Positions 1-10,172 of a stretch of 10,172 nucleotides of DNA are shown one piece after another. The notes beneath the pieces are model-generated. The model was not told the origin of the DNA and searched no databases. It saw only the letters and a program-made list of their open reading frames with translations. The DNA is from a virus (taxonomy: Duplodnaviria; Heunggongvirae; Uroviricota; Caudoviricetes). The position numbers were made by a program, and so were the translations under genes. The stretch's first letter is position 1; every line of letters begins with the position of its first letter. The stretch is taken from the IMG/VR virus record IMGVR_UViG_2778261532_000011. One strand, given 5' to 3'.

Positions 1-276
1 TGGGAGCAGTATGAACACTTGGCAAAATGGCTTATTTATTTCGGTAGTTTATTTGAAGTAAAAGGAACCAATTTTGAGAAAAAATACATACATGCGGTTG
101 AGCACTCAATGACTAATATGAATAAACCTTACGAAACAGGCTGCTCATGGCGAGCATATCTAGCCTGGAAAACAAAATGGCCTTCACTGACAGCATCTAA
201 CCGCTCTCTTATTAAGAATGAGATGGAAGATATCCCGCTACAACAGATTCACGATATTATATCTAAGTTTATATAG
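1..276 (+). CDS. 3' end of a CDS entering from the left edge (partial); product unknown, speculatively the C-terminal nuclease region of a type III restriction Res-like subunit
   Basis: Frame 1 is open from nt 1 (W-E-Q-Y-E-H...) with no in-frame stop before TAG at 274-276, so the TTG at 19 in the ORF track is probably internal. GC of nt 1-120 counted by hand is about 35 percent, visibly lower than the rest of the window. An F-E-V-K about 70 residues from the C-terminus is compatible with the (D/E)xK half of a PD-(D/E)xK nuclease motif; the PD half would lie outside the window. Functional identity is a guess. Confidence 0.55.
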   Translation, partial: WEQYEHLAKWLIYFGSLFEVKGTNFEKKYIHAVEHSMTNMNKPYETGCSWRAYLAWKTKWPSLTASNRSLIKNEMEDIPLQQIHDIISKFI

Positions 277-285
277 TATATTTAT

Positions 286-312
286 CTCCGGCCTAATCTC
301 CCTAGGCCGGAG
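286..312. terminator. Hairpin between convergent genes; putative bidirectional transcription terminator
   Basis: Perfect 10-bp inverted repeat CTCCGGCCTA (286-295) / TAGGCCGGAG (303-312) with a 7-nt loop, lying 9 nt after the plus-strand stop (274-276) and 5 nt before the minus-strand stop (318-320). Flanks are A/T-rich but there is no clean U-run on either side. Confidence 0.5.
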
Positions 313-317
313 AGTTC

Positions 318-566
318 TTAATCAGCATTCAGAAGCAATGCGTTATCTATGATGATCTGCTCCCATTCTTCGAATGCCCGGTCGCGGACACCTTGGGGAA
401 CACTGTTAGTTTTGAAATCGACGACCGTCCGCCATTTCCCGTCCGGGCGGTACATGCGCAGAGCTTTACTTCCCCCTTCCCTGCGCACCTCAACGTTGTG
501 CTTGTCAGCAAACTCTTGTAATGCTCGTAGCGTCCCATGCTTTACTGTGTAGTATCGCTTTTTCAA
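318..566 (-). CDS. lxc: 82-aa small protein with TTG start; probably Lxc/Bof-like modulator of C1 repressor in P1-type phages
   Basis: ORF of 82 codons plus TAA stop (318-320). The start is TTG at 566-564, preceded by GGAGAG about 6 nt upstream. The start overlaps the upstream gene's TGA stop (TTGA overlap at 563-566). I recall P1 bof/lxc as an 82-codon TTG-initiated gene, and the position downstream of a darB-like gene fits recalled P1 gene order. Assignment is by size, start codon and synteny, not by sequence comparison. Confidence 0.55.
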   Translation of the reverse strand: MKKRYYTVKHGTLRALQEFADKHNVEVRREGGSKALRMYRPDGKWRTVVDFKTNSVPQGVRDRAFEEWEQIIIDNALLLNAD

Positions 567-1003
567 GTTTTCTCTCCAGCCTGTGCCAAGGCTTCAACTT
601 CCAAATCGTAAGACTCAAACTCATAGTCCTGGTCGTCAACCTCTTCAGGCACTGGCAGTAAATGCCAGGCTGAGTATATCTGACCATTATCAAAACGCTC
701 CTGGCTGTAGAGCGTCGCGGCTATGAGCGTCAGCGCCGGACGGTCATAACGGTAAATTTTGCGAACGTCACGGTCAACGAGACGACCGAAATTACCATAA
801 CCGCGCTCCAGTAATAATTTTTTAATTTCCGGCCAGTATGGACCATAGCTGCGGTACAGGCGGGGATTTTTCAGTAATCGCCCGCGTAGCCCTGACAGGA
901 AGAAATCAACGTATTCGTCTTCTGTCTTTCCTAACAACGCTGTACGGAGTACCGCCTCAAGATATGTTTTATTCGGTTTTATTGTATCAGATAGTGTGGC
1001 CAT
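563..1003 (-). CDS. 146-aa hypothetical protein with acidic C-terminal tail, co-directional with and immediately downstream of the darB-like gene (Ulx position in P1 gene order)
   Basis: ATG at 1003-1001, TGA stop at 565-563, no internal stops. It is translationally coupled to the 82-aa gene. The C-terminus is acidic (EEVDDQDYEFESYDLEVEALAQAGEKT). I recognise no catalytic motif. Confidence 0.6.
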   Translation of the reverse strand: MATLSDTIKPNKTYLEAVLRTALLGKTEDEYVDFFLSGLRGRLLKNPRLYRSYGPYWPEIKKLLLERGYGNFGRLVDRDVRKIYRYDRPALTLIAATLYSQERFDNGQIYSAWHLLPVPEEVDDQDYEFESYDLEVEALAQAGEKT

Positions 1004-1036: not shown

Positions 1037-4000
1037 TTATGCGTATTGTTGGATGACGGCCAGAACGTCCGCCACGTTGTGTTTTGTCTCGATAATCCAC
1101 CAGTTACCCGGGAAATCGCTGTTCTTCGCCTTCGCTGGCAGCCAGCGAGCGCCGAATTTCGCCTTGATTGCGTCTTTCGCACGGAAAAGAACGCCTTTCA
1201 TGCCTGAGGCTTCCTGAAGCCCAAATACCTCGCCAGCGGCGAATTTCGGTGCGTACATCATCTTCAGGTCGGCGGTGGATACGCGATAATTCAGACCAAG
1301 AGACTGAGCTATGCTGGTGGCATCACCCTGTATTGATGATAACTCTTCTTGTTTCTCGTTTCTGGCGGCAATTTCTTCCTCCGTGATGTTGCCAAGGGCC
1401 AGGTTTATCCGATCAGCGTCTGCCTGTTTCTCTTCATCGGTGCGCCCGGAAAGTACCGTGTTAATTCTGTGCAATATCTCCACATGGTTCTTGCGCATGC
1501 TGAGCAATTCCGGCGTAACCTCGTTAAGGTCCACCAGCCCAAGGATGGCAAGGTCGGAAAACATTGATACCAGGTTGTAGGTCATGCGATAGCTGAGTTG
1601 GCCATAGGCTGATGGCAACTGCACCGCATCCATTTGATAGGCATCCATAAATTTAGAGCCGTCGTTTACGACATCCGCAATTGCCGGTGTGATTTTCCCT
1701 GTGGCGGCGGCCTCCCTGATTGCTGTTACCCACGATTGAGTCAGCGCGGCGACTGCATGATTCAGATTGGCTTTCCGTTCTGCTGCAATGCGCGCGCTTG
1801 CTGCGTCCATTGCCTGCTTGATCTCGTCTTTATTGCTGTAAATGCCAATGGGGCCAAACTGTGTTGTGGTGATCTCATAATCTGACGCCCGGAACTCATT
1901 GGTACCGAAAATGGCATTGGTGACCTCAAGTTCAGAATCCCCGTTACGAGTAGCCCCCTGGCTTGTTTTCTCCGGCATTTTTGCGATCGCATCCGCTATG
2001 TTCTCCTGAATTGCTTCAGGGGATAGCGTATCTCCGTATGACGCGATTACATCGCCATAATTGGAACCAAACAGTTCAACCAGGAATGCTTCTGCCAAAC
2101 GGACCTGGCGGTTATTCCCTTCAGACATCATACCAAGCACCCATTTTGCAATTGACGACTTCAGCGCGCCGTCACGGCGATCCGGGTAAACCGCATGCTT
2201 CAGTGGGTCCGTATAGGTACCAACAAAATCAATGCTATAGCCTGACTCTGTAGTCTGAACGCCGTATGAGTCAGTGATTTTGATCATGCCGCGCTGCTGG
2301 AAACGGTAGAAATCGTCACAGGAAATGATGTCGTTAATCCCGGCGATGGAGACGCCACCACTGATTTTCTGCATAACAGCATCTTCATCGGGAGTTACAT
2401 CAACCTGTTTATCCAGCGTCTTCACATCCCAGTTACCCGATTTGGTGCCTTTGAAGGTAAAGATGATCTCCACGTCTGCGCGCTGGCTGTCGAAGTCCAG
2501 CGACTTAATGCGAACGATATCACCGGCACAATCGTAGTATTGGCCTACACGCCATGAGCGATCGCCGATAACAAGGAACTCATTCGCATGGTTAACCAGA
2601 TCAGGATCAACATCCAGAATGCCTTTATTTATTGCATCCTCCACCAGCGGGCGCAGGCGTTTGATATCCGTCGCGGCCTTCTGAGTACGGTTCAATAATT
2701 TCTCATAGCGGGAGATGGCCTGAGAGATATTAGCCTTGCGCTGAATGGCGCTTTTCAACGACGCGCGATACTGTGCTAACAACGTACGGTCTGTGTGATG
2801 GACGCTACCCCAGCGGGCCTTCCAGTCTGCGTTATCAGCTGCTTTGGCCATTACCGCCTGTTTGAATTTAGCTACCTCGGCGGTGGTCTTTTCAAGTTCC
2901 GCTTTGCTTCGCTCTAATTCAGCGGTAAGTACCTCCACATCCTCGCCAGCTGCGTGCTGCGCCTTGATGTAGTTCTGAAGGTCGATAGTAGCCTGTTCTT
3001 TCTGGCGAGCGCGTTGCGCGGCTTTCGCCTTATCCATTTGAACCTGCATCATTGCCAGACGTTCGCCATCATCCTTAGCGGTATACATCTGCATTTCGAT
3101 CATATCGTTGGCGTCGGCGTTCTCCATTTCAGACTTATCTGAGCGGAGGATATCGGAGATCCAGCCTGCTTTACGCTTCAGCGTCTTCAGTCGGTATTCA
3201 TCGAAAGAACCCTTGCCGCAGTAGTAGTGAACGCGAACGCTTGCACGGTTGGAACCAACTCGGGCACCGCGACCGTTACGCTGTGCGATACTGGCTGGTG
3301 TCCATGGCAACGTCAGATGATGGATGTCAGTCGTTCCTCGATGCAGGTTGATACCCACCTCTGCCTTTTTGTTGCAGATGATGATCGGAGTCCGGCCCTC
3401 CTGGAAGTCGGCAGCAATCTTTTCCAGCCCGCCCAGCGACATTTCATTTTGCTGCGCGATATAGGCGTCATACAGAGCCATTTGCTCGTTGTATTTCGCT
3501 ATCTGTGCATCTGTTGGTTCATCCGGTAGCTCTTTCGGCGGTTTAACCGCTTTCAGTTTCTTACCGGTTTTACCTGCCTCGGCAACCGTCTGAGCATTCA
3601 GGATCCCCACCTTTGAAGGTTCAAGGTTAAGAGCATTGCAGATAATGCGCTTGAGCTTCTGGTGCTGCGTTTTTTCGTCCGTGAAGATGATTTGCTTACC
3701 TTCCGGGAAAAACTCCTTCAGCGTGGCGATCAGCTTCGCGTATTTGGGCGTAACGGGGTGAGTTACGGTCTGTTCGTCAATGCCAAACTTGGCCAAGCGC
3801 TTATTCACTTCCTGCTCGAACGCTTCCGGAACCTGCAACTGAATAAACTCGCCCTTATCTATCAGGGAGTATTGCGATTGCTGCGTGATTGAATCATCAC
3901 TGTCGTCGTCTTCGCTGGTGGCTTGTTTGGGCAAACTGTCCGCCAGCTGCTGCACCGCATCGGCGTACTCCGGCAGGAAACGATAGGTGATCCGGCGATA

Positions 4001-7000
4001 GTACAGGTCCATGTCAGTACATACGCGGTCCATATCCCTGATTATTGAGAAGATCGGACGGGCTTTCTCGTGCTCAATCACTCCGTCTTCATCGACCGAG
4101 GTCGTTACGCCATTGTTGGCTTTGGCCGCCGCTTCCGCCTGCTGACGCAATTCTTCATACGCCGCCAGTTGTTCTTCAGTAAGTGGTGCATCCTGCTGGT
4201 GTTCGTCCAGCTCCGGGATCTCCACGGTATCCTTAACGTCTTCCGCCGTTTTAAGCGTTACCCAGCGATGGAATATACCGCGCAGCGCATCAAGGTTTTC
4301 AAAGCCCACCAGCGCCATTTTTTCTTCAACTTCACCGCTAATTTTCTGTACCGTTTCCAGCCTGGTCTTGCCGAAGAATTTAACGAAGTCATCAGGACCG
4401 TAGATCCCCATCTTCTGCCAGTATTCCTTCGGCAGAACATGAGAAAGCATGTTGTATGCATCGATCGGGGTGTTAACGACTGGCGTTGCAGTCAGAAGAA
4501 CCGGCCCGCGCCCGCCATTCTTTTTCATCAGGTACGCGTTTTTAATTGCCATATCCCGCGCCGATTGCGCCACCGCGCTGGTGGGCAGATAGGCCAGTTG
4601 TGACGCTTCGCGACCATTTTTATAGCTATTGCGGTAGTTGTGGCCTTCGTCGGCGATCACGCTGTCGAAGCCCATATCCTCAAAGTACGGATACTTCTCT
4701 GCTTTTTCGGTACCGGTATCTGAATACTCCGACAATACCCGGCGACGCGCTGCCTCTTTGCGGTGGGAGTCGGAGTCCATTGCGCTGGCTACGCGCCCGG
4801 CGGCAACGAAGTCATAAAGCATATCCTGTGCATGCTCATCTACGGTGTCATCACGTAGCGGAATGCGGGCGTATTGCTCTTTGGTAAACACGACTGCACG
4901 GTAATTTGAGTGCGGTATCGCGTTCATCCGCGCCGTGATAGTGGCTTCATCTGCCAGCTTAAGGGCATCGCGCATAAGTGGAGTGCCATCAGCACCAAGG
5001 ACAGGTTTACCGTTCTCATCGAGCACCGGCACCTGGCGAATCTGATCGCCATCCATCAGCACATCAAGACCGACGAACAGGTAGTTACTGAATGCCTCTT
5101 CACTCAGGAATTCTTTTGCTTCGTAATACCAGTTTTCCAGCACTGATTTAGGCACTACATACGCAGTACGGGTGGAGCGACCGTTCTCATAGTTGAACGC
5201 CTCAAGCGCCAGCGCGGTCGTGGTTTTACCCAGCCCGGTGCCGAAGCCCAGGATGCCGCGCCCATCTTCGGACAGTCGGCGCACCTCGCTATTCTGGTAA
5301 TCAAATGGCTGGCGCTTACCGCTTAATCCCTTCAACCCAAGCGGATCGCCAGAGTGTTCATACGGGATATTGCTATTGAACACATCGTTGTATTTGGCAA
5401 CCAGCTCATCGTAGCGATCGTGCGTCTTGATCCACTTATTGAACTGGTCCTCAAGCAGTGCCATCTGCTCGCGGTAGCCGTTCGCCGTCGCGCTATCTTT
5501 GCCACCGATACGCGCACCATTGAGATACTTTTCCAGCTGTGCCGGGAACCCGGTCGCGTTTTCACCTGATTTACGGTCCCACTCGTAGCGGATCTCGCCT
5601 GTTTCTTTATCCTTGCGCTGGACGACACCGTATCGGTGCCCGACGAACAGACCATCACCACCGTGATAGGTGTCAGAAACCATTTCGTCGCCTTCCAGCT
5701 GCACTGACTGCACATAGCGCAGATCCGGATAGCCGTTTTCCTGCAAAAACTCCAGAATGACGGAGCGGTCGAACCAACGGCTATTGAGCTTAAAGCGGAT
5801 ATTCTCTGCTGGCGTCTTGATGCGCTTCTCTTCGATCGCTGCCAGCTGATTAAGGACGTTGTTCTTTACTGGACCGTCGGGGAGTGTGGCAAGGAATTCC
5901 TGTTTTGGAGCCACTATCTCGTTAATGTCGCCGCTGGTGGCGCGGGCGAACGGAACAATCCCGCCATACGGTGAAACCGCAATGCCAGGGGTGCTGGCCA
6001 ATAAATTAAGCAACTCGTCATCACTGGCTGGCAGTTCGCCGGTAAACGCAAGGCGGAAATCATCGAGCTGGATTGGATCGCGAGTGAGATCACTGTAGAG
6101 ATAACGCAGGGTGTCCTGATAGCTGGTGGAGTCATAACTGGCGCTGGAATCATGCGTAACCAGTTTTCCTGTCAGCTCGTCAGAAATAGTGCCATCCAGC
6201 TTAATTGCACCACGGAAAGCAAACCAGGCGCGCGCACCGCTCCCCGATAATTTCGCTATCGGACCGCGACCGGGGTTACCAAAACGGTCAATCTCTGCCT
6301 GCAAACGGGATACCAGAGAAAGGCGCTGCTGTTCGATTTGTTCAGCACTATGCCCGGCGGCCTTCATGTCCTGATATTCAATTAACATCCGGCCAATCAT
6401 CGCCCCGCGATACAAGCGTTCACGGTATTTTTCAGGCTGGCTGTTAATCCAGTCCACCAGCTGCACCATATCGTCGCTGATTGATGTGGTGTACTTATCG
6501 CGGACATTTGCCATCTGGGTAAATGTCATGCCGAGACGGCCTTCTGTTGTAGTCAGGTTACGCTGAAGAGCCTCCCAGCTATCCGCGCCATAACTGGCAG
6601 CATCGATCTTAAGTTCCTTCCCGGCATCAGCTTCAATCCAGCGACCACCAGCATATTTTTGCCATACGCCATTAATCAGGCGCATTTCCCCTTCACCAAC
6701 AACGTCTGCGGTCGGTGACGGTTCAGCCATATCGAGCAAAGACCAGTCGATACGGCTTTCGAAACGATGAATCAGCTTCGCTTTAAGAGCCTGGTTATCA
6801 ATCTGACCGTCGGCACGAACCTCAATACGCCCCTGGAAGCCCTTTTCCTGGGTGCCATGAACAAACCGGCGGCCGTCCTTTTCAAACCACTTGCCAGAAA
6901 TAAACGTTGGCCAAAGCACATTTGCCAATTCAAGAGTGCTCTCATCCACCAGGGGGATTTTCTCAGCCATCTCTGCCGGATGTTTGCGCATCAGCACCAC

Positions 7001-7804
7001 ATCTACGACCGTACTGGTCCCGTTTGCGTCAAAAGTACCGGTAGGCAAGCGGTGAGCGCCAAGAAATTCAGCTTTACGGGATAGGCGCAGGCGCAACCGC
7101 TTCATGTTTGAACCTGAAACAATGGACGGCGGCACAATCACACACATGAATCCGCCTGGCTTTATCTTGTCCAGCATGCGGAGCATGAAGTAAGACCCCA
7201 TGTCCGTTTCTTCTGCGTAAGGCTTATCGATGTTGCGTGTGTTATCACGACCACCGAACGGAACGTTACCCACAACATGGTCGAATGAATCGTTAGGCGT
7301 GCTTACAGCCAGCTGTTCGAACGGGGAAATCTGTACGCTGTCTTCCGGGTGTAACAGCTGGTTTATACGACCGGAAACACTGCTGATCTCAGTCGCGGTC
7401 ATCACCGTACCAACCGGTTTTGTCTCATTAAAAACGCCGGTGCCCGCCGATGGTTCCAGAGTGTTACCTACGTCCGCGCCGTAGAGCTTCATGATCTCCC
7501 AGACACCTTCAGCGATCGGCTTTGGTGTGTAATATTCGGAGACGGACCCGCCAATGCCGCCTTCGCCGGTGTACCCAGCCAGGATCTGGCGCTGTTCATC
7601 TGTCAGTGTCGCGCCGTCCACCAGCGAATTAAGCAAATCTATCGCCTTCTGATTCGCCTCCCGGCGTAGTCGGTCATAGCTTTTGCCTTCCACCTTTTCC
7701 ACGCCGTATCTAATCGGCGCTCGATGAGATGTTATTGCCCTAATGTATTTCAATATTTCGCTGACACTTGAACAGCGAAACACCCCCATAGATAGCTTTT
7801 TCAT
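1037..7804 (-). CDS. darB: 2255-aa multidomain protein: N-terminal gamma-class N6-adenine methyltransferase domain plus central SNF2-family (SF2) ATPase/helicase plus coiled-coil and unassigned C-terminal region; DarB-like phage antirestriction protein
   Basis: Single uninterrupted ORF; ATG at 7804-7802 preceded by AAGGA (7815-7811) 6 nt upstream; TAA stop at 1039-1037. Methyltransferase motifs in gamma order: YYTP (aa 91-94), LEPSAGTGVF (aa 116-125), FDHVVGNVPFGG (aa 174-185). SNF2 motifs: PFDYQ (aa 833-837), GILGFGTGLGKTTTA (aa 851-865), DEGHNYRN (aa 1052-1059), LLTATPVVNTPIDAYNML (aa 1103-1120), IIICNKKAEVGINL (aa 1474-1487), QRNGRGARVG (aa 1508-1517). The length equals my recollection of P1 DarB (2255 aa), which is described as a methyltransferase/helicase fusion. 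Confidence 0.9.
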   Translation of the reverse strand: MKKLSMGVFRCSSVSEILKYIRAITSHRAPIRYGVEKVEGKSYDRLRREANQKAIDLLNSLVDGATLTDEQRQILAGYTGEGGIGGSVSEYYTPKPIAEGVWEIMKLYGADVGNTLEPSAGTGVFNETKPVGTVMTATEISSVSGRINQLLHPEDSVQISPFEQLAVSTPNDSFDHVVGNVPFGGRDNTRNIDKPYAEETDMGSYFMLRMLDKIKPGGFMCVIVPPSIVSGSNMKRLRLRLSRKAEFLGAHRLPTGTFDANGTSTVVDVVLMRKHPAEMAEKIPLVDESTLELANVLWPTFISGKWFEKDGRRFVHGTQEKGFQGRIEVRADGQIDNQALKAKLIHRFESRIDWSLLDMAEPSPTADVVGEGEMRLINGVWQKYAGGRWIEADAGKELKIDAASYGADSWEALQRNLTTTEGRLGMTFTQMANVRDKYTTSISDDMVQLVDWINSQPEKYRERLYRGAMIGRMLIEYQDMKAAGHSAEQIEQQRLSLVSRLQAEIDRFGNPGRGPIAKLSGSGARAWFAFRGAIKLDGTISDELTGKLVTHDSSASYDSTSYQDTLRYLYSDLTRDPIQLDDFRLAFTGELPASDDELLNLLASTPGIAVSPYGGIVPFARATSGDINEIVAPKQEFLATLPDGPVKNNVLNQLAAIEEKRIKTPAENIRFKLNSRWFDRSVILEFLQENGYPDLRYVQSVQLEGDEMVSDTYHGGDGLFVGHRYGVVQRKDKETGEIRYEWDRKSGENATGFPAQLEKYLNGARIGGKDSATANGYREQMALLEDQFNKWIKTHDRYDELVAKYNDVFNSNIPYEHSGDPLGLKGLSGKRQPFDYQNSEVRRLSEDGRGILGFGTGLGKTTTALALEAFNYENGRSTRTAYVVPKSVLENWYYEAKEFLSEEAFSNYLFVGLDVLMDGDQIRQVPVLDENGKPVLGADGTPLMRDALKLADEATITARMNAIPHSNYRAVVFTKEQYARIPLRDDTVDEHAQDMLYDFVAAGRVASAMDSDSHRKEAARRRVLSEYSDTGTEKAEKYPYFEDMGFDSVIADEGHNYRNSYKNGREASQLAYLPTSAVAQSARDMAIKNAYLMKKNGGRGPVLLTATPVVNTPIDAYNMLSHVLPKEYWQKMGIYGPDDFVKFFGKTRLETVQKISGEVEEKMALVGFENLDALRGIFHRWVTLKTAEDVKDTVEIPELDEHQQDAPLTEEQLAAYEELRQQAEAAAKANNGVTTSVDEDGVIEHEKARPIFSIIRDMDRVCTDMDLYYRRITYRFLPEYADAVQQLADSLPKQATSEDDDSDDSITQQSQYSLIDKGEFIQLQVPEAFEQEVNKRLAKFGIDEQTVTHPVTPKYAKLIATLKEFFPEGKQIIFTDEKTQHQKLKRIICNALNLEPSKVGILNAQTVAEAGKTGKKLKAVKPPKELPDEPTDAQIAKYNEQMALYDAYIAQQNEMSLGGLEKIAADFQEGRTPIIICNKKAEVGINLHRGTTDIHHLTLPWTPASIAQRNGRGARVGSNRASVRVHYYCGKGSFDEYRLKTLKRKAGWISDILRSDKSEMENADANDMIEMQMYTAKDDGERLAMMQVQMDKAKAAQRARQKEQATIDLQNYIKAQHAAGEDVEVLTAELERSKAELEKTTAEVAKFKQAVMAKAADNADWKARWGSVHHTDRTLLAQYRASLKSAIQRKANISQAISRYEKLLNRTQKAATDIKRLRPLVEDAINKGILDVDPDLVNHANEFLVIGDRSWRVGQYYDCAGDIVRIKSLDFDSQRADVEIIFTFKGTKSGNWDVKTLDKQVDVTPDEDAVMQKISGGVSIAGINDIISCDDFYRFQQRGMIKITDSYGVQTTESGYSIDFVGTYTDPLKHAVYPDRRDGALKSSIAKWVLGMMSEGNNRQVRLAEAFLVELFGSNYGDVIASYGDTLSPEAIQENIADAIAKMPEKTSQGATRNGDSELEVTNAIFGTNEFRASDYEITTTQFGPIGIYSNKDEIKQAMDAASARIAAERKANLNHAVAALTQSWVTAIREAAATGKITPAIADVVNDGSKFMDAYQMDAVQLPSAYGQLSYRMTYNLVSMFSDLAILGLVDLNEVTPELLSMRKNHVEILHRINTVLSGRTDEEKQADADRINLALGNITEEEIAARNEKQEELSSIQGDATSIAQSLGLNYRVSTADLKMMYAPKFAAGEVFGLQEASGMKGVLFRAKDAIKAKFGARWLPAKAKNSDFPGNWWIIETKHNVADVLAVIQQYA
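2645..3082 (-). other. Predicted coiled-coil / charged helical segment of the large protein (approx. aa 1575-1720)
   Basis: Run rich in A/E/K/Q/R with heptad-like spacing (ERLAMMQVQMDKAKAAQRARQKEQATIDLQNYIKAQ...AELERSKAELEKTTAEVAKFKQAVMAKAADNADWKARW). Judged by eye only. Confidence 0.4.
3215..5317 (-). other. SNF2-family ATPase/helicase core of the large protein (approx. aa 830-1530)
   Basis: Walker A GTGLGKT encoded at nt 5222-5245 and DEGH at nt 4640-4651, both verified by reverse-complementing the sequence. SNF2-type motif III (LLTATPxxNTPxDxYNML) and motif VI (QRNGRGAR) are present. There is a long insertion between the two RecA-like lobes (aa about 1130-1360). Borders are approximate. 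Confidence 0.75.
6980..7543 (-). other. N6-adenine methyltransferase domain of the large protein (approx. aa 88-275)
   Basis: Motif X-like YYTP, AdoMet-binding motif I EPSAGTG (nt 7430-7459), and catalytic motif IV position reading N-V-P-F (within nt 7253-7273) instead of the canonical (D/N/S)PP(Y/F/W). Domain borders are approximate. Confidence 0.7.
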
Positions 7805-7814
7805 TGGTAATCCT

Positions 7815-7835
7815 TAACAAGTGACTAGTGTTAAA
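7815..7835. promoter_or_regulatory. Palindromic element in the 75-bp divergent intergenic region between the darB-like and portal-like genes; candidate operator or late-promoter element
   Basis: TTAACA (7815-7820) and TGTTAA (7830-7835) are inverted repeats flanking AGTGACTAGTG, which contains the ACTAGT palindrome. The element overlaps the darB-like Shine-Dalgarno (7811-7815) and lies about 45 nt upstream of the portal-like TTG start. No convincing sigma70 -35/-10 pair is visible in either direction. Confidence 0.35.
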
Positions 7836-7870
7836 TTCCGTTCAAACACGATGCGAATTATTCTAATTAA

Positions 7871-10172
<2,302 letters not shown>

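What the first reader, a model, noticed from the sequence alone, without database searches (positions are those of the whole stretch)
7253..7273. Non-canonical catalytic motif IV (N-V-P-F) in the methyltransferase domain
At the position where gamma-class amino-methyltransferases carry (D/N/S)-P-P-(Y/F/W), this protein reads FDHVVG-N-V-P-F-GG, with valine replacing the first proline. Motif X (YYTP) and motif I (EPSAGTG) are intact. The substitution could mean altered substrate geometry, a non-DNA substrate, or a domain that binds AdoMet but is catalytically weak.
Basis: seen in the sequence. Interest (0 to 1): 0.5.

Follow-up and report, generated by a model that had tools for sequence, protein, structure and literature searches.

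The report
DarB methylase's conserved N-V-P-F catalytic motif
The phage P1 anti-restriction protein DarB carries N-V-P-F instead of the textbook N-P-P-F at its methyltransferase active site; this is a conserved hallmark of the whole DarB-like family, not a defect, and probably still supports catalysis.

Summary
Observation confirmed. Window 7253-7273 (- strand) encodes V178-G-N-V-P-F-G184 of a 2255-aa ORF (1037-7804) that is 99% identical to phage P1 DarB. Sequence and fold comparisons place N180-V181-P182-F183 on the NPPF motif IV of type I HsdM methyltransferases, directly after strand beta4. No canonical (D/N/S)PP(Y/F/W) occurs anywhere else in the protein.

The valine is not strain-specific. 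Among 320 family sequences covering the site, some only 24% identical, 292 read NVPF, 13 NIPF and 10 NPP(F/Y). Asn and the second Pro never vary. The AdoMet-binding motifs are equally conserved. A search whose query lacked motif IV gave the same picture. The few NPP(F/Y) members form several small groups whose closest relatives read NVPF, and no other position changes with them, so V and P look interchangeable.

Active N6-adenine rRNA methyltransferases (Erm, KsgA/Dim1, TFB1M) use N(L/I/V)P(Y/F); PikR1 and PikR2 have exactly NVPF. The substituted residue contributes only its backbone carbonyl.

Most likely this is a catalytically competent variant motif IV. Weak catalysis or a non-DNA substrate is not supported, but no DarB methyltransferase activity has been demonstrated. 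Modest interest: an apparently undescribed family signature in a known protein.

The parts
1037..7804 (-). darB coding sequence (2255 aa plus stop codon), the virion-packaged anti-restriction protein
   Evidence: ORF list and translation. 2223/2255 residues are identical to P1 DarB AAQ13985, and residues 61-286 are 100% identical.
7715..7804 (-). N-terminal 30 residues, the capsid-targeting signal defined for P1 DarB
   Evidence: PMC9024508 shows the first 30 residues of P1 DarB suffice for packaging. The window copy differs from P1 at residue 2 (K for N) within this stretch. Assigned by homology, not tested here.
6935..7555 (-). Gamma-class (EcoKI/TaqI-like) N6-adenine methyltransferase domain, about residues 84-290
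   Evidence: Pfam N6_Mtase 33.7 bits (cut-off 20.4) and Eco57I 31.8 bits (cut-off 25.3). Profile hits to HsdM structures down to E 3.6e-12. The AlphaFold model (pLDDT 81.5) matches HsdM, BsaXI, CamA, M.BseCI and M.TaqI with probability 1.00.
7523..7534 (-). Motif X, YYTP (residues 91-94); the 'TP' cap that contacts the motif IV asparagine
   Evidence: Aligns to YFTP of HsdM. T93 is 99% and Y92 96% conserved in 266 relatives. Role as described in PMC5512222.
7436..7456 (-). Motif I, EPSAGTG (residues 117-123), the AdoMet-binding glycine loop
   Evidence: Aligns to dPaaGTg of HsdM. P118, G121, G123 and F125 are 98-100% conserved.
7388..7390 (-). E139, the conserved acidic residue I assign to motif II; in this fold it binds the AdoMet ribose
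   Evidence: E or D in 266/266 relatives. The motif II assignment and ribose-binding role are inferred from its position after motif I, not aligned or tested here.
7256..7267 (-). Motif IV, N180-V181-P182-F183 (AAC GTT CCG TTC), the catalytic loop after strand beta4
   Evidence: Aligned to NPPF of EcoKI, StySJI and BsaXI. The model strand at model residues 106-112 ends at N180. Family census: NVPF 292/320, NIPF 13, NPP[FY] 10. Codons identical in 80 P1-like viral contigs.
3125..5308 (-). SNF2-type superfamily 2 ATPase/translocase module (about residues 833-1560) with intact motifs: GTGLGKT 855-861, DEGH 1052-1055, QRNGRGAR about 1508-1515
   Evidence: Pfam SNF2-rel_dom, ResIII and Helicase_C above cut-off. 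Partial NCBIfam matches to the DISARM helicase DrmD and to DpdE, far below their cut-offs. Motifs read directly from the translation.
563..1003 (-). ulx, a Dar-system protein that aids DarB localisation, immediately downstream of darB
   Evidence: Position matches P1 ulx in AF234172. Role from PMC9024508.

Best explanation
N180-V181-P182-F183 is the genuine catalytic motif IV of the DarB methyltransferase domain, a gamma-class, HsdM/TaqI-like AdoMet-dependent N6-adenine DNA methyltransferase fused to an SNF2 translocase. The valine is the ancestral, selectively maintained state of the whole DarB-like methylase-helicase family, not a lesion.

Inferred mechanism, as in NPP(Y/F) enzymes:
- The Asn180 side chain and the backbone carbonyl of residue 181 accept hydrogen bonds from the N6 amino group of a flipped adenine.
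- Phe183 stacks on the base.
- Pro182 fixes the loop.
- Residue 181 contributes only its main chain. A beta-branched residue placed before a proline is held in much the same extended conformation as a proline, so Val can replace Pro without loss of chemistry. The Erm/KsgA/Dim1 N(L/I/V)P(Y/F) enzymes work this way.

Shown here: the motif's position, its homology, its family-wide conservation and V/P interchangeability. Inferred: catalytic competence, adenine-N6 as the target, and DNA as the substrate.
For: Position and homology:
- NVPF aligns on NPPF of EcoKI HsdM, StySJI HsdM and BsaXI. Motifs X and I align as well.
- Pfam N6_Mtase and Eco57I match above threshold.
- The model (pLDDT 81.5) has its best fold matches in HsdM-type and other N6-adenine DNA methyltransferases, probability 1.00, TM-score (query-normalised) 0.55-0.63.
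- There is no alternative [DNS]PP[YFW] anywhere in DarB.

Conservation:
- The profile search found 11,912 cluster representatives at E<=1e-3 and 4,519 at E<=1e-30.
- Across 266 near-full domains, N180 and P182 are 100% conserved, F183 98.9%, V181 92.9% (V/I/L 97.7%). T93, P118, G121, G123, F125 and E139(E/D) are 98-100% conserved.
- Census of 320 sequences covering the site: NVPF 292, NIPF 13, NLPF 1, NAPF 1, NVPY 1, NPPF 7, NPPY 3.
- Relatives at 24-25% identity still read NVPF.

Ascertainment control: a query lacking motif IV returned 45 fragments that reach the site. Of these, 38 read NVPF, 1 NIPF and 4 NPPF.

Interchangeability: NPP[FY] members fall into at least three small groups whose other nearest neighbours read NVPF, NAPF or NIPF at about 50-55% identity. 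No column co-varies with the V/P state.

No strain polymorphism: 80/80 P1-like IMG/VR loci carry AAC GTT CCG TTC, and the methyltransferase core is 100% identical to P1 DarB.

Precedent:
- ErmC' has NIPY. PikR1 and PikR2 have NVPF. The CDD consensus is (A/S/N)(L/I/V)P(Y/F) (PMC6787224).
- DIMT1 has NLPY and TFB1M has NLPF, and both are active. [quoted passage not shown]

The fused SNF2 module has intact ATPase motifs, consistent with an enzyme that works on double-stranded DNA.
Against: - No methyltransferase activity of DarB or any family member has been reported in the literature I could search. The mechanism of DarB is described as undefined (PMC11109961).
- DarB protects against EcoK and EcoB but is not the factor needed against EcoA (PMC12810830). 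A simple broad-specificity adenine methylase does not obviously explain this.
- V is more conserved (93%) than a purely neutral P-equivalent would need to be, which hints at some family-specific advantage.
- The sequence samples are the best-scoring 150 representatives plus short database fragments, not the whole 11,912-member set.
Confidence: 0.7

Rival explanations
1. Functional specialisation. The valine is maintained because it changes what the active site does compared with NPPF enzymes. Possibilities are a roomier or more flexible pocket that allows sequence-independent, translocase-coupled methylation of entering DNA, a second methylation (N6,N6-dimethyladenine) as in Erm/KsgA enzymes, or a different substrate form such as single-stranded DNA or RNA.
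For: - V/I/L occupies the site in about 98% of 266 relatives down to 24% identity, more than neutrality requires.
- (A/S/N)(L/I/V)P(Y/F) is the signature annotated for dimethylating N6-adenine methyltransferases (PMC6787224).
- In REBASE-derived class A enzymes the motif is predominantly NPP(Y), and variants such as NLPY are called rare and of unknown significance (bioRxiv 10.1101/2023.12.13.571470).
Against: - NPP[FY] has re-arisen at least three times inside the family in otherwise typical members, including full-length proteins of about 2,200-2,300 aa, without compensating changes.
- PikR1, a monomethylase, has the same NVPF as the dimethylase PikR2, so the motif does not dictate mono- versus dimethylation (PMC6787224).
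- Fold and sequence similarity are to DNA methyltransferases. No RrnaAD (Erm/KsgA) Pfam hit appears at E<=0.01.
Confidence: 0.15
2. Pseudo-enzyme. The domain binds AdoMet and/or DNA, or mimics HsdM to interfere with type IA restriction complexes, but does not transfer methyl groups. The non-canonical motif IV would be a sign of lost catalysis.
For: - No activity has ever been shown. Protection is limited to the EcoK/EcoB family, which would fit a protein-targeting mechanism.
- The closest solved relatives are HsdM subunits.
- The best PDB match in the single-sequence and fold searches, 7eew, reads S-G-V-P-F at this site, lacking even the Asn.
Against: - Known inactive paralogues lose the catalytic residues (METTL14 has EPPL; PMC10915109). 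Here Asn, Pro and Phe and all AdoMet-contacting motifs are 98-100% conserved across hundreds of clusters from several phyla.
- The substituted residue acts through its backbone only.
- Exactly this tetrapeptide is active in PikR1/PikR2.
Confidence: 0.13
3. Artefact or private mutation. The valine is a sequencing error or a strain-specific change, or the true motif IV lies elsewhere in the domain.
For: None found.
Against: - Codons are identical in 80/80 P1-like viral contigs, and the protein is identical to P1 DarB over the domain.
- NVPF occurs in 292/320 family members.
- There is no [DNS]PP[YFW] anywhere in the 2255-aa protein.
- Three independent alignments to solved structures agree on the position.
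Confidence: 0.01

Closest known systems
Phage P1 DarB (AAQ13985), the archetype of the methylase-helicase dyad of 'polyvalent proteins' (Iyer et al. 2017, PMC5512222)
   Same: 99% identical over all 2255 residues, in the same gene neighbourhood lxc-ulx-darB / prt-pro. Same architecture: an N-terminal region, then an EcoKI/TaqI-like adenine methyltransferase, then an SNF2 ATPase.
   Different: 32 substitutions, none within residues 61-286. The published family description gives motif IV as NPP(Y/F). In my samples the family reads NVPF in about 91% of members and NPP(F/Y) in about 3%.
Type I restriction-modification HsdM subunits (EcoKI 2y7c/2ar0, StySJI 2okc, EcoR124 7bst) and related gamma-class enzymes (BsaXI, CamA, M.BseCI, M.TaqI)
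   Same: Same fold and the same motif order X-I-II-III-IV. Motifs X (Y-[YF]-T-P), I and IV align residue for residue.
   Different: These enzymes have N-P-P-F/Y. They need a specificity subunit or domain for DNA recognition. DarB has no Pfam-detectable HsdS-like domain, is fused to an SNF2 translocase, and is only about 14-22% identical to them.
Erm / KsgA / Dim1 / TFB1M rRNA N6-adenine methyltransferases (Pfam RrnaAD, PF00398); PikR1 and PikR2 in particular
   Same: Motif IV is N-(L/I/V)-P-(Y/F), and exactly NVPF in PikR1/PikR2. These are proven active N6-adenine methyltransferases (PMC6787224, PMC10915109).
   Different: A different family and substrate (rRNA), with a different C-terminal RNA-binding domain. 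There is no detectable sequence match to DarB. The resemblance is confined to the active-site tetrapeptide and is best read as convergence.
Vibrio vulnificus YJ016 HsdM-like methyltransferase (PDB 7eew / 3ufb)
   Same: Best PDB match in the single-sequence and fold searches and among the top four in the profile searches. It also has Val-Pro-Phe at the motif IV position.
   Different: It reads S-G-V-P-F, with Gly where DarB has the catalytic Asn. It is part of a type I system and was crystallised with the DNA-mimic protein Ocr. I could not find its paper, so I do not know whether it is active.

Membership tests
Gamma-class (EcoKI/TaqI-like) N6-adenine DNA methyltransferases (Pfam N6_Mtase PF02384 / Eco57I PF07669) | Significant match to the family profiles | tested here: met
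   N6_Mtase 33.7 bits against cut-off 20.4. Eco57I 31.8 bits against cut-off 25.3. Profile against PDB HsdM down to E 3.6e-12.
Gamma-class (EcoKI/TaqI-like) N6-adenine DNA methyltransferases (Pfam N6_Mtase PF02384 / Eco57I PF07669) | Linear motif order X, I, II, III, IV with an N-terminal helix capped by a TP motif | tested here: met
   YYTP 91-94, EPSAGTG 117-123, E139, NVPF 180-183, aligned with the same motifs of HsdM.
Gamma-class (EcoKI/TaqI-like) N6-adenine DNA methyltransferases (Pfam N6_Mtase PF02384 / Eco57I PF07669) | Rossmann-like class I methyltransferase fold resembling HsdM/M.TaqI | tested here: met
   AlphaFold model with pLDDT 81.5 and pTM 0.80. Foldseek probability 1.00 to 7eew, 3ufb, 8w0p, CamA, M.BseCI, 2adm and 2y7c.
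Gamma-class (EcoKI/TaqI-like) N6-adenine DNA methyltransferases (Pfam N6_Mtase PF02384 / Eco57I PF07669) | Motif IV consensus (D/N/S)-P-P-(Y/F/W) | tested here: not met
   It reads N-V-P-F. Positions 1, 3 and 4 conform and position 2 is Val. This is a departure in one consensus position, not in fold or motif order.
Gamma-class (EcoKI/TaqI-like) N6-adenine DNA methyltransferases (Pfam N6_Mtase PF02384 / Eco57I PF07669) | AdoMet-dependent methylation of adenine N6 in DNA | not testable with these tools
DarB / methylase-helicase dyad of polyvalent proteins (PMC5512222) | Adenine methyltransferase domain fused at its C terminus to an SNF2-type superfamily 2 ATPase | tested here: met
   Methyltransferase Pfam hits at residues 145-290. 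SNF2-rel_dom/ResIII at 833-911. Helicase_C at 1455-1517.
DarB / methylase-helicase dyad of polyvalent proteins (PMC5512222) | Orthology with P1 DarB, including gene neighbourhood | tested here: met
   2223/2255 residues identical. The order lxc, ulx, darB, prt, pro is as in P1.
DarB / methylase-helicase dyad of polyvalent proteins (PMC5512222) | N-terminal LPD36 domain (the helical region that precedes the methylase in this family) with a GXGU motif (U = G, A or S) | tested here: inconclusive
   GEGGIGGS (residues 80-87) precedes motif X and is conserved in relatives. No LPD36 profile was available to test against.
DarB / methylase-helicase dyad of polyvalent proteins (PMC5512222) | Packaged in the virion and protects DNA in cis against EcoK/EcoB | not testable with these tools
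   Known for P1 DarB from the literature.
Erm/KsgA/Dim1 rRNA adenine dimethyltransferases (Pfam RrnaAD PF00398) | Motif IV (A/S/N)(L/I/V)P(Y/F) | tested here: met
   NVPF fits the consensus and equals the PikR1/PikR2 motif.
Erm/KsgA/Dim1 rRNA adenine dimethyltransferases (Pfam RrnaAD PF00398) | Match to the RrnaAD family profile | tested here: not met
   No RrnaAD hit at E<=0.01 in the Pfam scan of DarB. Erm/KsgA structures are absent from the 50 listed fold matches. DarB is not a member; the similarity is at the level of active-site chemistry only.

The most novel reading that the evidence does not exclude
The N-(V/I)-P-F signature marks a mechanistically distinct branch of DNA adenine methyltransferases. 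Coupled to their SNF2 motor, these enzymes would methylate entering phage or plasmid DNA processively and with little or no sequence specificity, or even dimethylate adenine as Erm/KsgA enzymes do on rRNA. That would explain the protection of P1 DNA in cis, unexplained since 1987. The V-for-P change would be the active-site adaptation that allows this.
Probability: 0.08. Interest if true: 0.7.

Novelty: new variant of a known kind. Interest (0 to 1): 0.3.

Why it matters
How DarB works has been unexplained since 1987, and whether its methyltransferase domain is catalytic is central to that question. This analysis removes one reason to doubt it. The odd motif IV is a strongly conserved family signature, with a proven catalytic precedent in Erm-type enzymes.

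It also refines the published description of this very large family (at least 4,500 clusters at 50% identity with E<=1e-30), which gives the motif as NPP(Y/F). It identifies clean mutants to test: N180A, F183A and V181P.

Practically, motif-based annotation tools that require (D/N/S)PP(Y/F/W) will miss or mis-score the catalytic motif in these anti-restriction proteins of phages and plasmids.

Tried and rejected
- True motif IV elsewhere: rejected. DarB contains no [DNS]PP[YFW]. DKPY (193-196) lies in the loop after motif IV. NIPY (812-815) lies outside the stretches matched by the methyltransferase profiles, just before the helicase. About 1.4 such loose matches are expected by chance, by my rough estimate.
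- Strain-specific valine: rejected.
- Word-index bias. The second homologue search could have been enriched for NVPF, because NVPFG is itself a conserved 5-residue word. I repeated the search with an alignment that stops before motif IV and got the same result.
- Compensatory co-variation with the V/P state: none found.
- The search for homologous proteins returned only proteins up to roughly twice the query length, so its hits are fragments. Full-length relatives came only from the representatives search, which lists just the best 150 of 11,912.
- The search for related loci failed with the diverse alignment A3. With the closer alignment A4 it returned only P1-like contigs, useful for polymorphism but not for diversity.
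- Literature: Lobocka 2004 and Piya 2017 are not held. No paper for PDB 7eew was found. No paper mentions NVPF in DarB.
- Model coordinates are not exposed, so I could not measure the geometry of the V181 carbonyl.
Full report
**What is in the window**

The 10,172-base window is a segment of a P1-like phage-plasmid. It is 98-99% identical to phage P1 and P7 and to hundreds of P1-like plasmids of Escherichia, Salmonella, Klebsiella and Shigella. The gene order is that of P1: lxc (318-566, -), ulx (563-1003, -), darB (1037-7804, -), prt (7880-9589, +) and pro (from 9582, +). The 2255-aa darB product shares 2223 of 2255 residues with P1 DarB, and residues 61-286 (the whole methyltransferase core) are 100% identical. 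Everything said here therefore applies to P1 DarB itself.

**Checking the observation**

The reverse complement of 7253-7273 is GTG GGT AAC GTT CCG TTC GGT. In frame with darB it reads V178 G179 N180 V181 P182 F183 G184.

**Is NVPF really motif IV?**

Yes, on several independent lines:
- Pfam N6_Mtase and Eco57I match this stretch above their gathering scores.
- phmmer with DarB alone, and profiles built from two alignments, put NVPF on the NPPF of EcoKI HsdM, StySJI HsdM and BsaXI. Motif X (Y-Y/F-T-P) and motif I align in the same hits.
- An AlphaFold model of residues 69-325 (pLDDT 81.5, pTM 0.80) has a strand ending at N180, followed by the loop, which is the canonical motif IV position.
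- The best structural matches of that model are HsdM-type subunits, BsaXI, CamA, M.BseCI and M.TaqI, all at probability 1.00.
- No (D/N/S)PP(Y/F/W) occurs anywhere in the 2255 residues.

**Is the valine private or a family feature?**

It is a family feature.
- In a first set of 20 homologues (42-93% identical), N and P were invariant and V was present in 19. The exception was a Vibrio protein with NPPY.
- A profile search of 1.84 billion cluster representatives, which uses no word index, found 11,912 relatives at E<=1e-3 and 4,519 at E<=1e-30. Most of the best 150 are 2,000-2,600-aa proteins like DarB.
- In that set plus the first set the motif reads NVPF 153, NIPF 11, NPPY 3, NPPF 3, NAPF 1 and NLPF 1.
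- A second search with a diverse alignment added 103 more distant sequences at 26-37% identity, many from Actinobacteria. These read 101 NVPF, 1 NIPF and 1 NVPY.

That second tool selects candidates by shared 5-residue words, and NVPFG is such a word. I therefore repeated the search with an alignment that ends before motif IV. Of the 45 fragments that extend to the site, 38 read NVPF, 1 NIPF and 4 NPPF, and 2 are fragment ends that start with NVP. The bias is not the explanation.

Pooled over 320 sequences: NVPF 292, NIPF 13, NPPF 7, NPPY 3, others 5. All 80 P1-like viral contigs retrieved carry the same twelve bases, AAC GTT CCG TTC.

**Conservation pattern**

In 266 near-complete domains:

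| Residue(s) | Conservation |
|---|---|
| N180, P182 | 100% |
| F183 | 98.9% |
| V181 | 92.9% (V/I/L 97.7%) |
| T93 (motif X) | 99% |
| P118, G121, G123, F125 (motif I) | 98-100% |
| E139 | E or D in 100% |

This is the pattern of an enzyme under selection for AdoMet binding and catalysis. Degenerate paralogues look different: METTL14 has lost the catalytic residues (EPPL; PMC10915109).

**V and P are interchangeable here**

The ten NPP(F/Y) sequences fall into at least three small groups: two among gammaproteobacterial-type members and one among the distant fragments. For the five with near-complete domains, the nearest neighbours outside their own groups mostly read NVPF, at about 50-55% identity. 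Relatives at only 24-25% identity still read NVPF. This suggests NVPF is ancestral for the family and NPP(F/Y) a repeated secondary change. No other alignment column changes consistently with the V/P state.

**Precedent and mechanism**

[quoted passage not shown] The aromatic residue stacks on the base (PMC10915109). Residue 2 therefore acts through its main chain.

Active enzymes with an aliphatic residue at this position are well known. ErmC' has NIPY, DIMT1 has NLPY and TFB1M has NLPF. The Erm-family enzymes PikR1 and PikR2 have exactly NVPF, and the CDD consensus is (A/S/N)(L/I/V)P(Y/F) (PMC6787224; PMC10915109). From general structural knowledge, a residue preceding proline is restricted to extended or polyproline-like backbone angles, so Val-Pro can present the carbonyl much as Pro-Pro does. 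That step is an inference.

DarB is not a member of the Erm/KsgA family. There is no RrnaAD profile hit, and none of those structures appears among the 50 listed fold matches. The resemblance is local and probably convergent.

**What this does and does not say about DarB function**

Iyer et al. assigned the family to the EcoKI/TaqI-like adenine methylases. They proposed that the SNF2 motor carries the methylase along entering DNA, and they described the motif as NPP(Y/F) (PMC5512222). My samples show the family norm is NVPF.

The ATPase motifs of the SNF2 module are intact. However, no methyltransferase activity of DarB is reported in the literature I could search, and its mechanism is explicitly called undefined (PMC11109961). 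Apparent anti-restriction by cloned darB was traced to Chi and EcoKI sites in the DNA, not to the protein. DarB's role is tied to EcoK and EcoB, not to EcoA (PMC12810830). This keeps open a non-catalytic, HsdM-mimicking role, and it also keeps open some family-specific advantage of valine. I rate these rivals at about 0.13 and 0.15.

**Novelty and score**

The gene and protein are well known. N(L/I/V)P(Y/F) is known to be catalytically competent in another family. What appears to be undescribed is that the very large DarB-like methylase-helicase family has NVPF, not NPP(Y/F), as its signature. The only paper in the library that combines 'NVPF' with 'methyltransferase' concerns Erm enzymes, and a recent classification calls such variants in DNA methyltransferases rare and of unknown significance.

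This is a modest refinement with clear experimental consequences (N180A, F183A and V181P alleles), not a surprise to a specialist. Interest 0.3; new variant of a known kind.

Noticed in passing
window 9582-10172 (+), breakpoint near 9948-9960: The pro gene (P1 head-processing protein/prohead protease) matches P1 Pro for about 126 codons, then diverges into stop codons. From about 9948 the DNA matches the end of an IS21-family element (IS100kyp/ISEc12-like, next to istB) found in many plasmids. This P1-like element therefore appears to carry an IS insertion in pro and may be defective for head maturation.
   Followed up: partly
window 1-320: The left end is absent from phage P1, which has the mod promoters and mod gene there. 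It is present in P1-like plasmids where the neighbouring gene is annotated 'SIR2 family protein'. This suggests the EcoP1 res-mod module has been replaced by a SIR2-type candidate defence gene in this lineage.
   Followed up: partly
window 1313-8093 (12 sites; 11 inside darB): There are twelve Chi sites (GCTGGTGG) on both strands, against 0.27 expected by chance (0 of 200 shuffles reach 12). This matches the report that darB carries 11 Chi sites and that cloned darB DNA triggers restriction alleviation independently of the protein (PMC11109961). Only one EcoKI site (485-497) is present, no more than chance predicts.
   Followed up: partly
PDB 7eew_A / 3ufb (Vibrio vulnificus YJ016 HsdM-like methyltransferase), aligned to DarB residues 174-186: This is the best PDB match to the DarB domain in the single-sequence and fold searches. 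It reads I-S-G-V-P-F-G where DarB reads V-G-N-V-P-F-G. It shares the Val-Pro-Phe but has Gly in place of the catalytic Asn. I could not find out whether that enzyme is active.
   Followed up: partly
DarB residues 193-196 (window 7217-7228) and 812-815 (window 5360-5371): Two further [DNS]xP[YFW] tetrapeptides occur: DKPY just after motif IV, and NIPY just upstream of the helicase. D193 and Y196 are conserved among close relatives as D-x-x-Y. Neither sits at a motif IV position, and roughly this number of matches is expected by chance.
   Followed up: yes
DarB residues 186 and 238 (window 7247-7249 and 7091-7093): R238 is invariant and R186 (in NVPFGxR) is 90% conserved in 266 relatives, as strongly as the catalytic residues. 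They may be family-specific DNA or phosphate contacts. No function was assigned.
   Followed up: no
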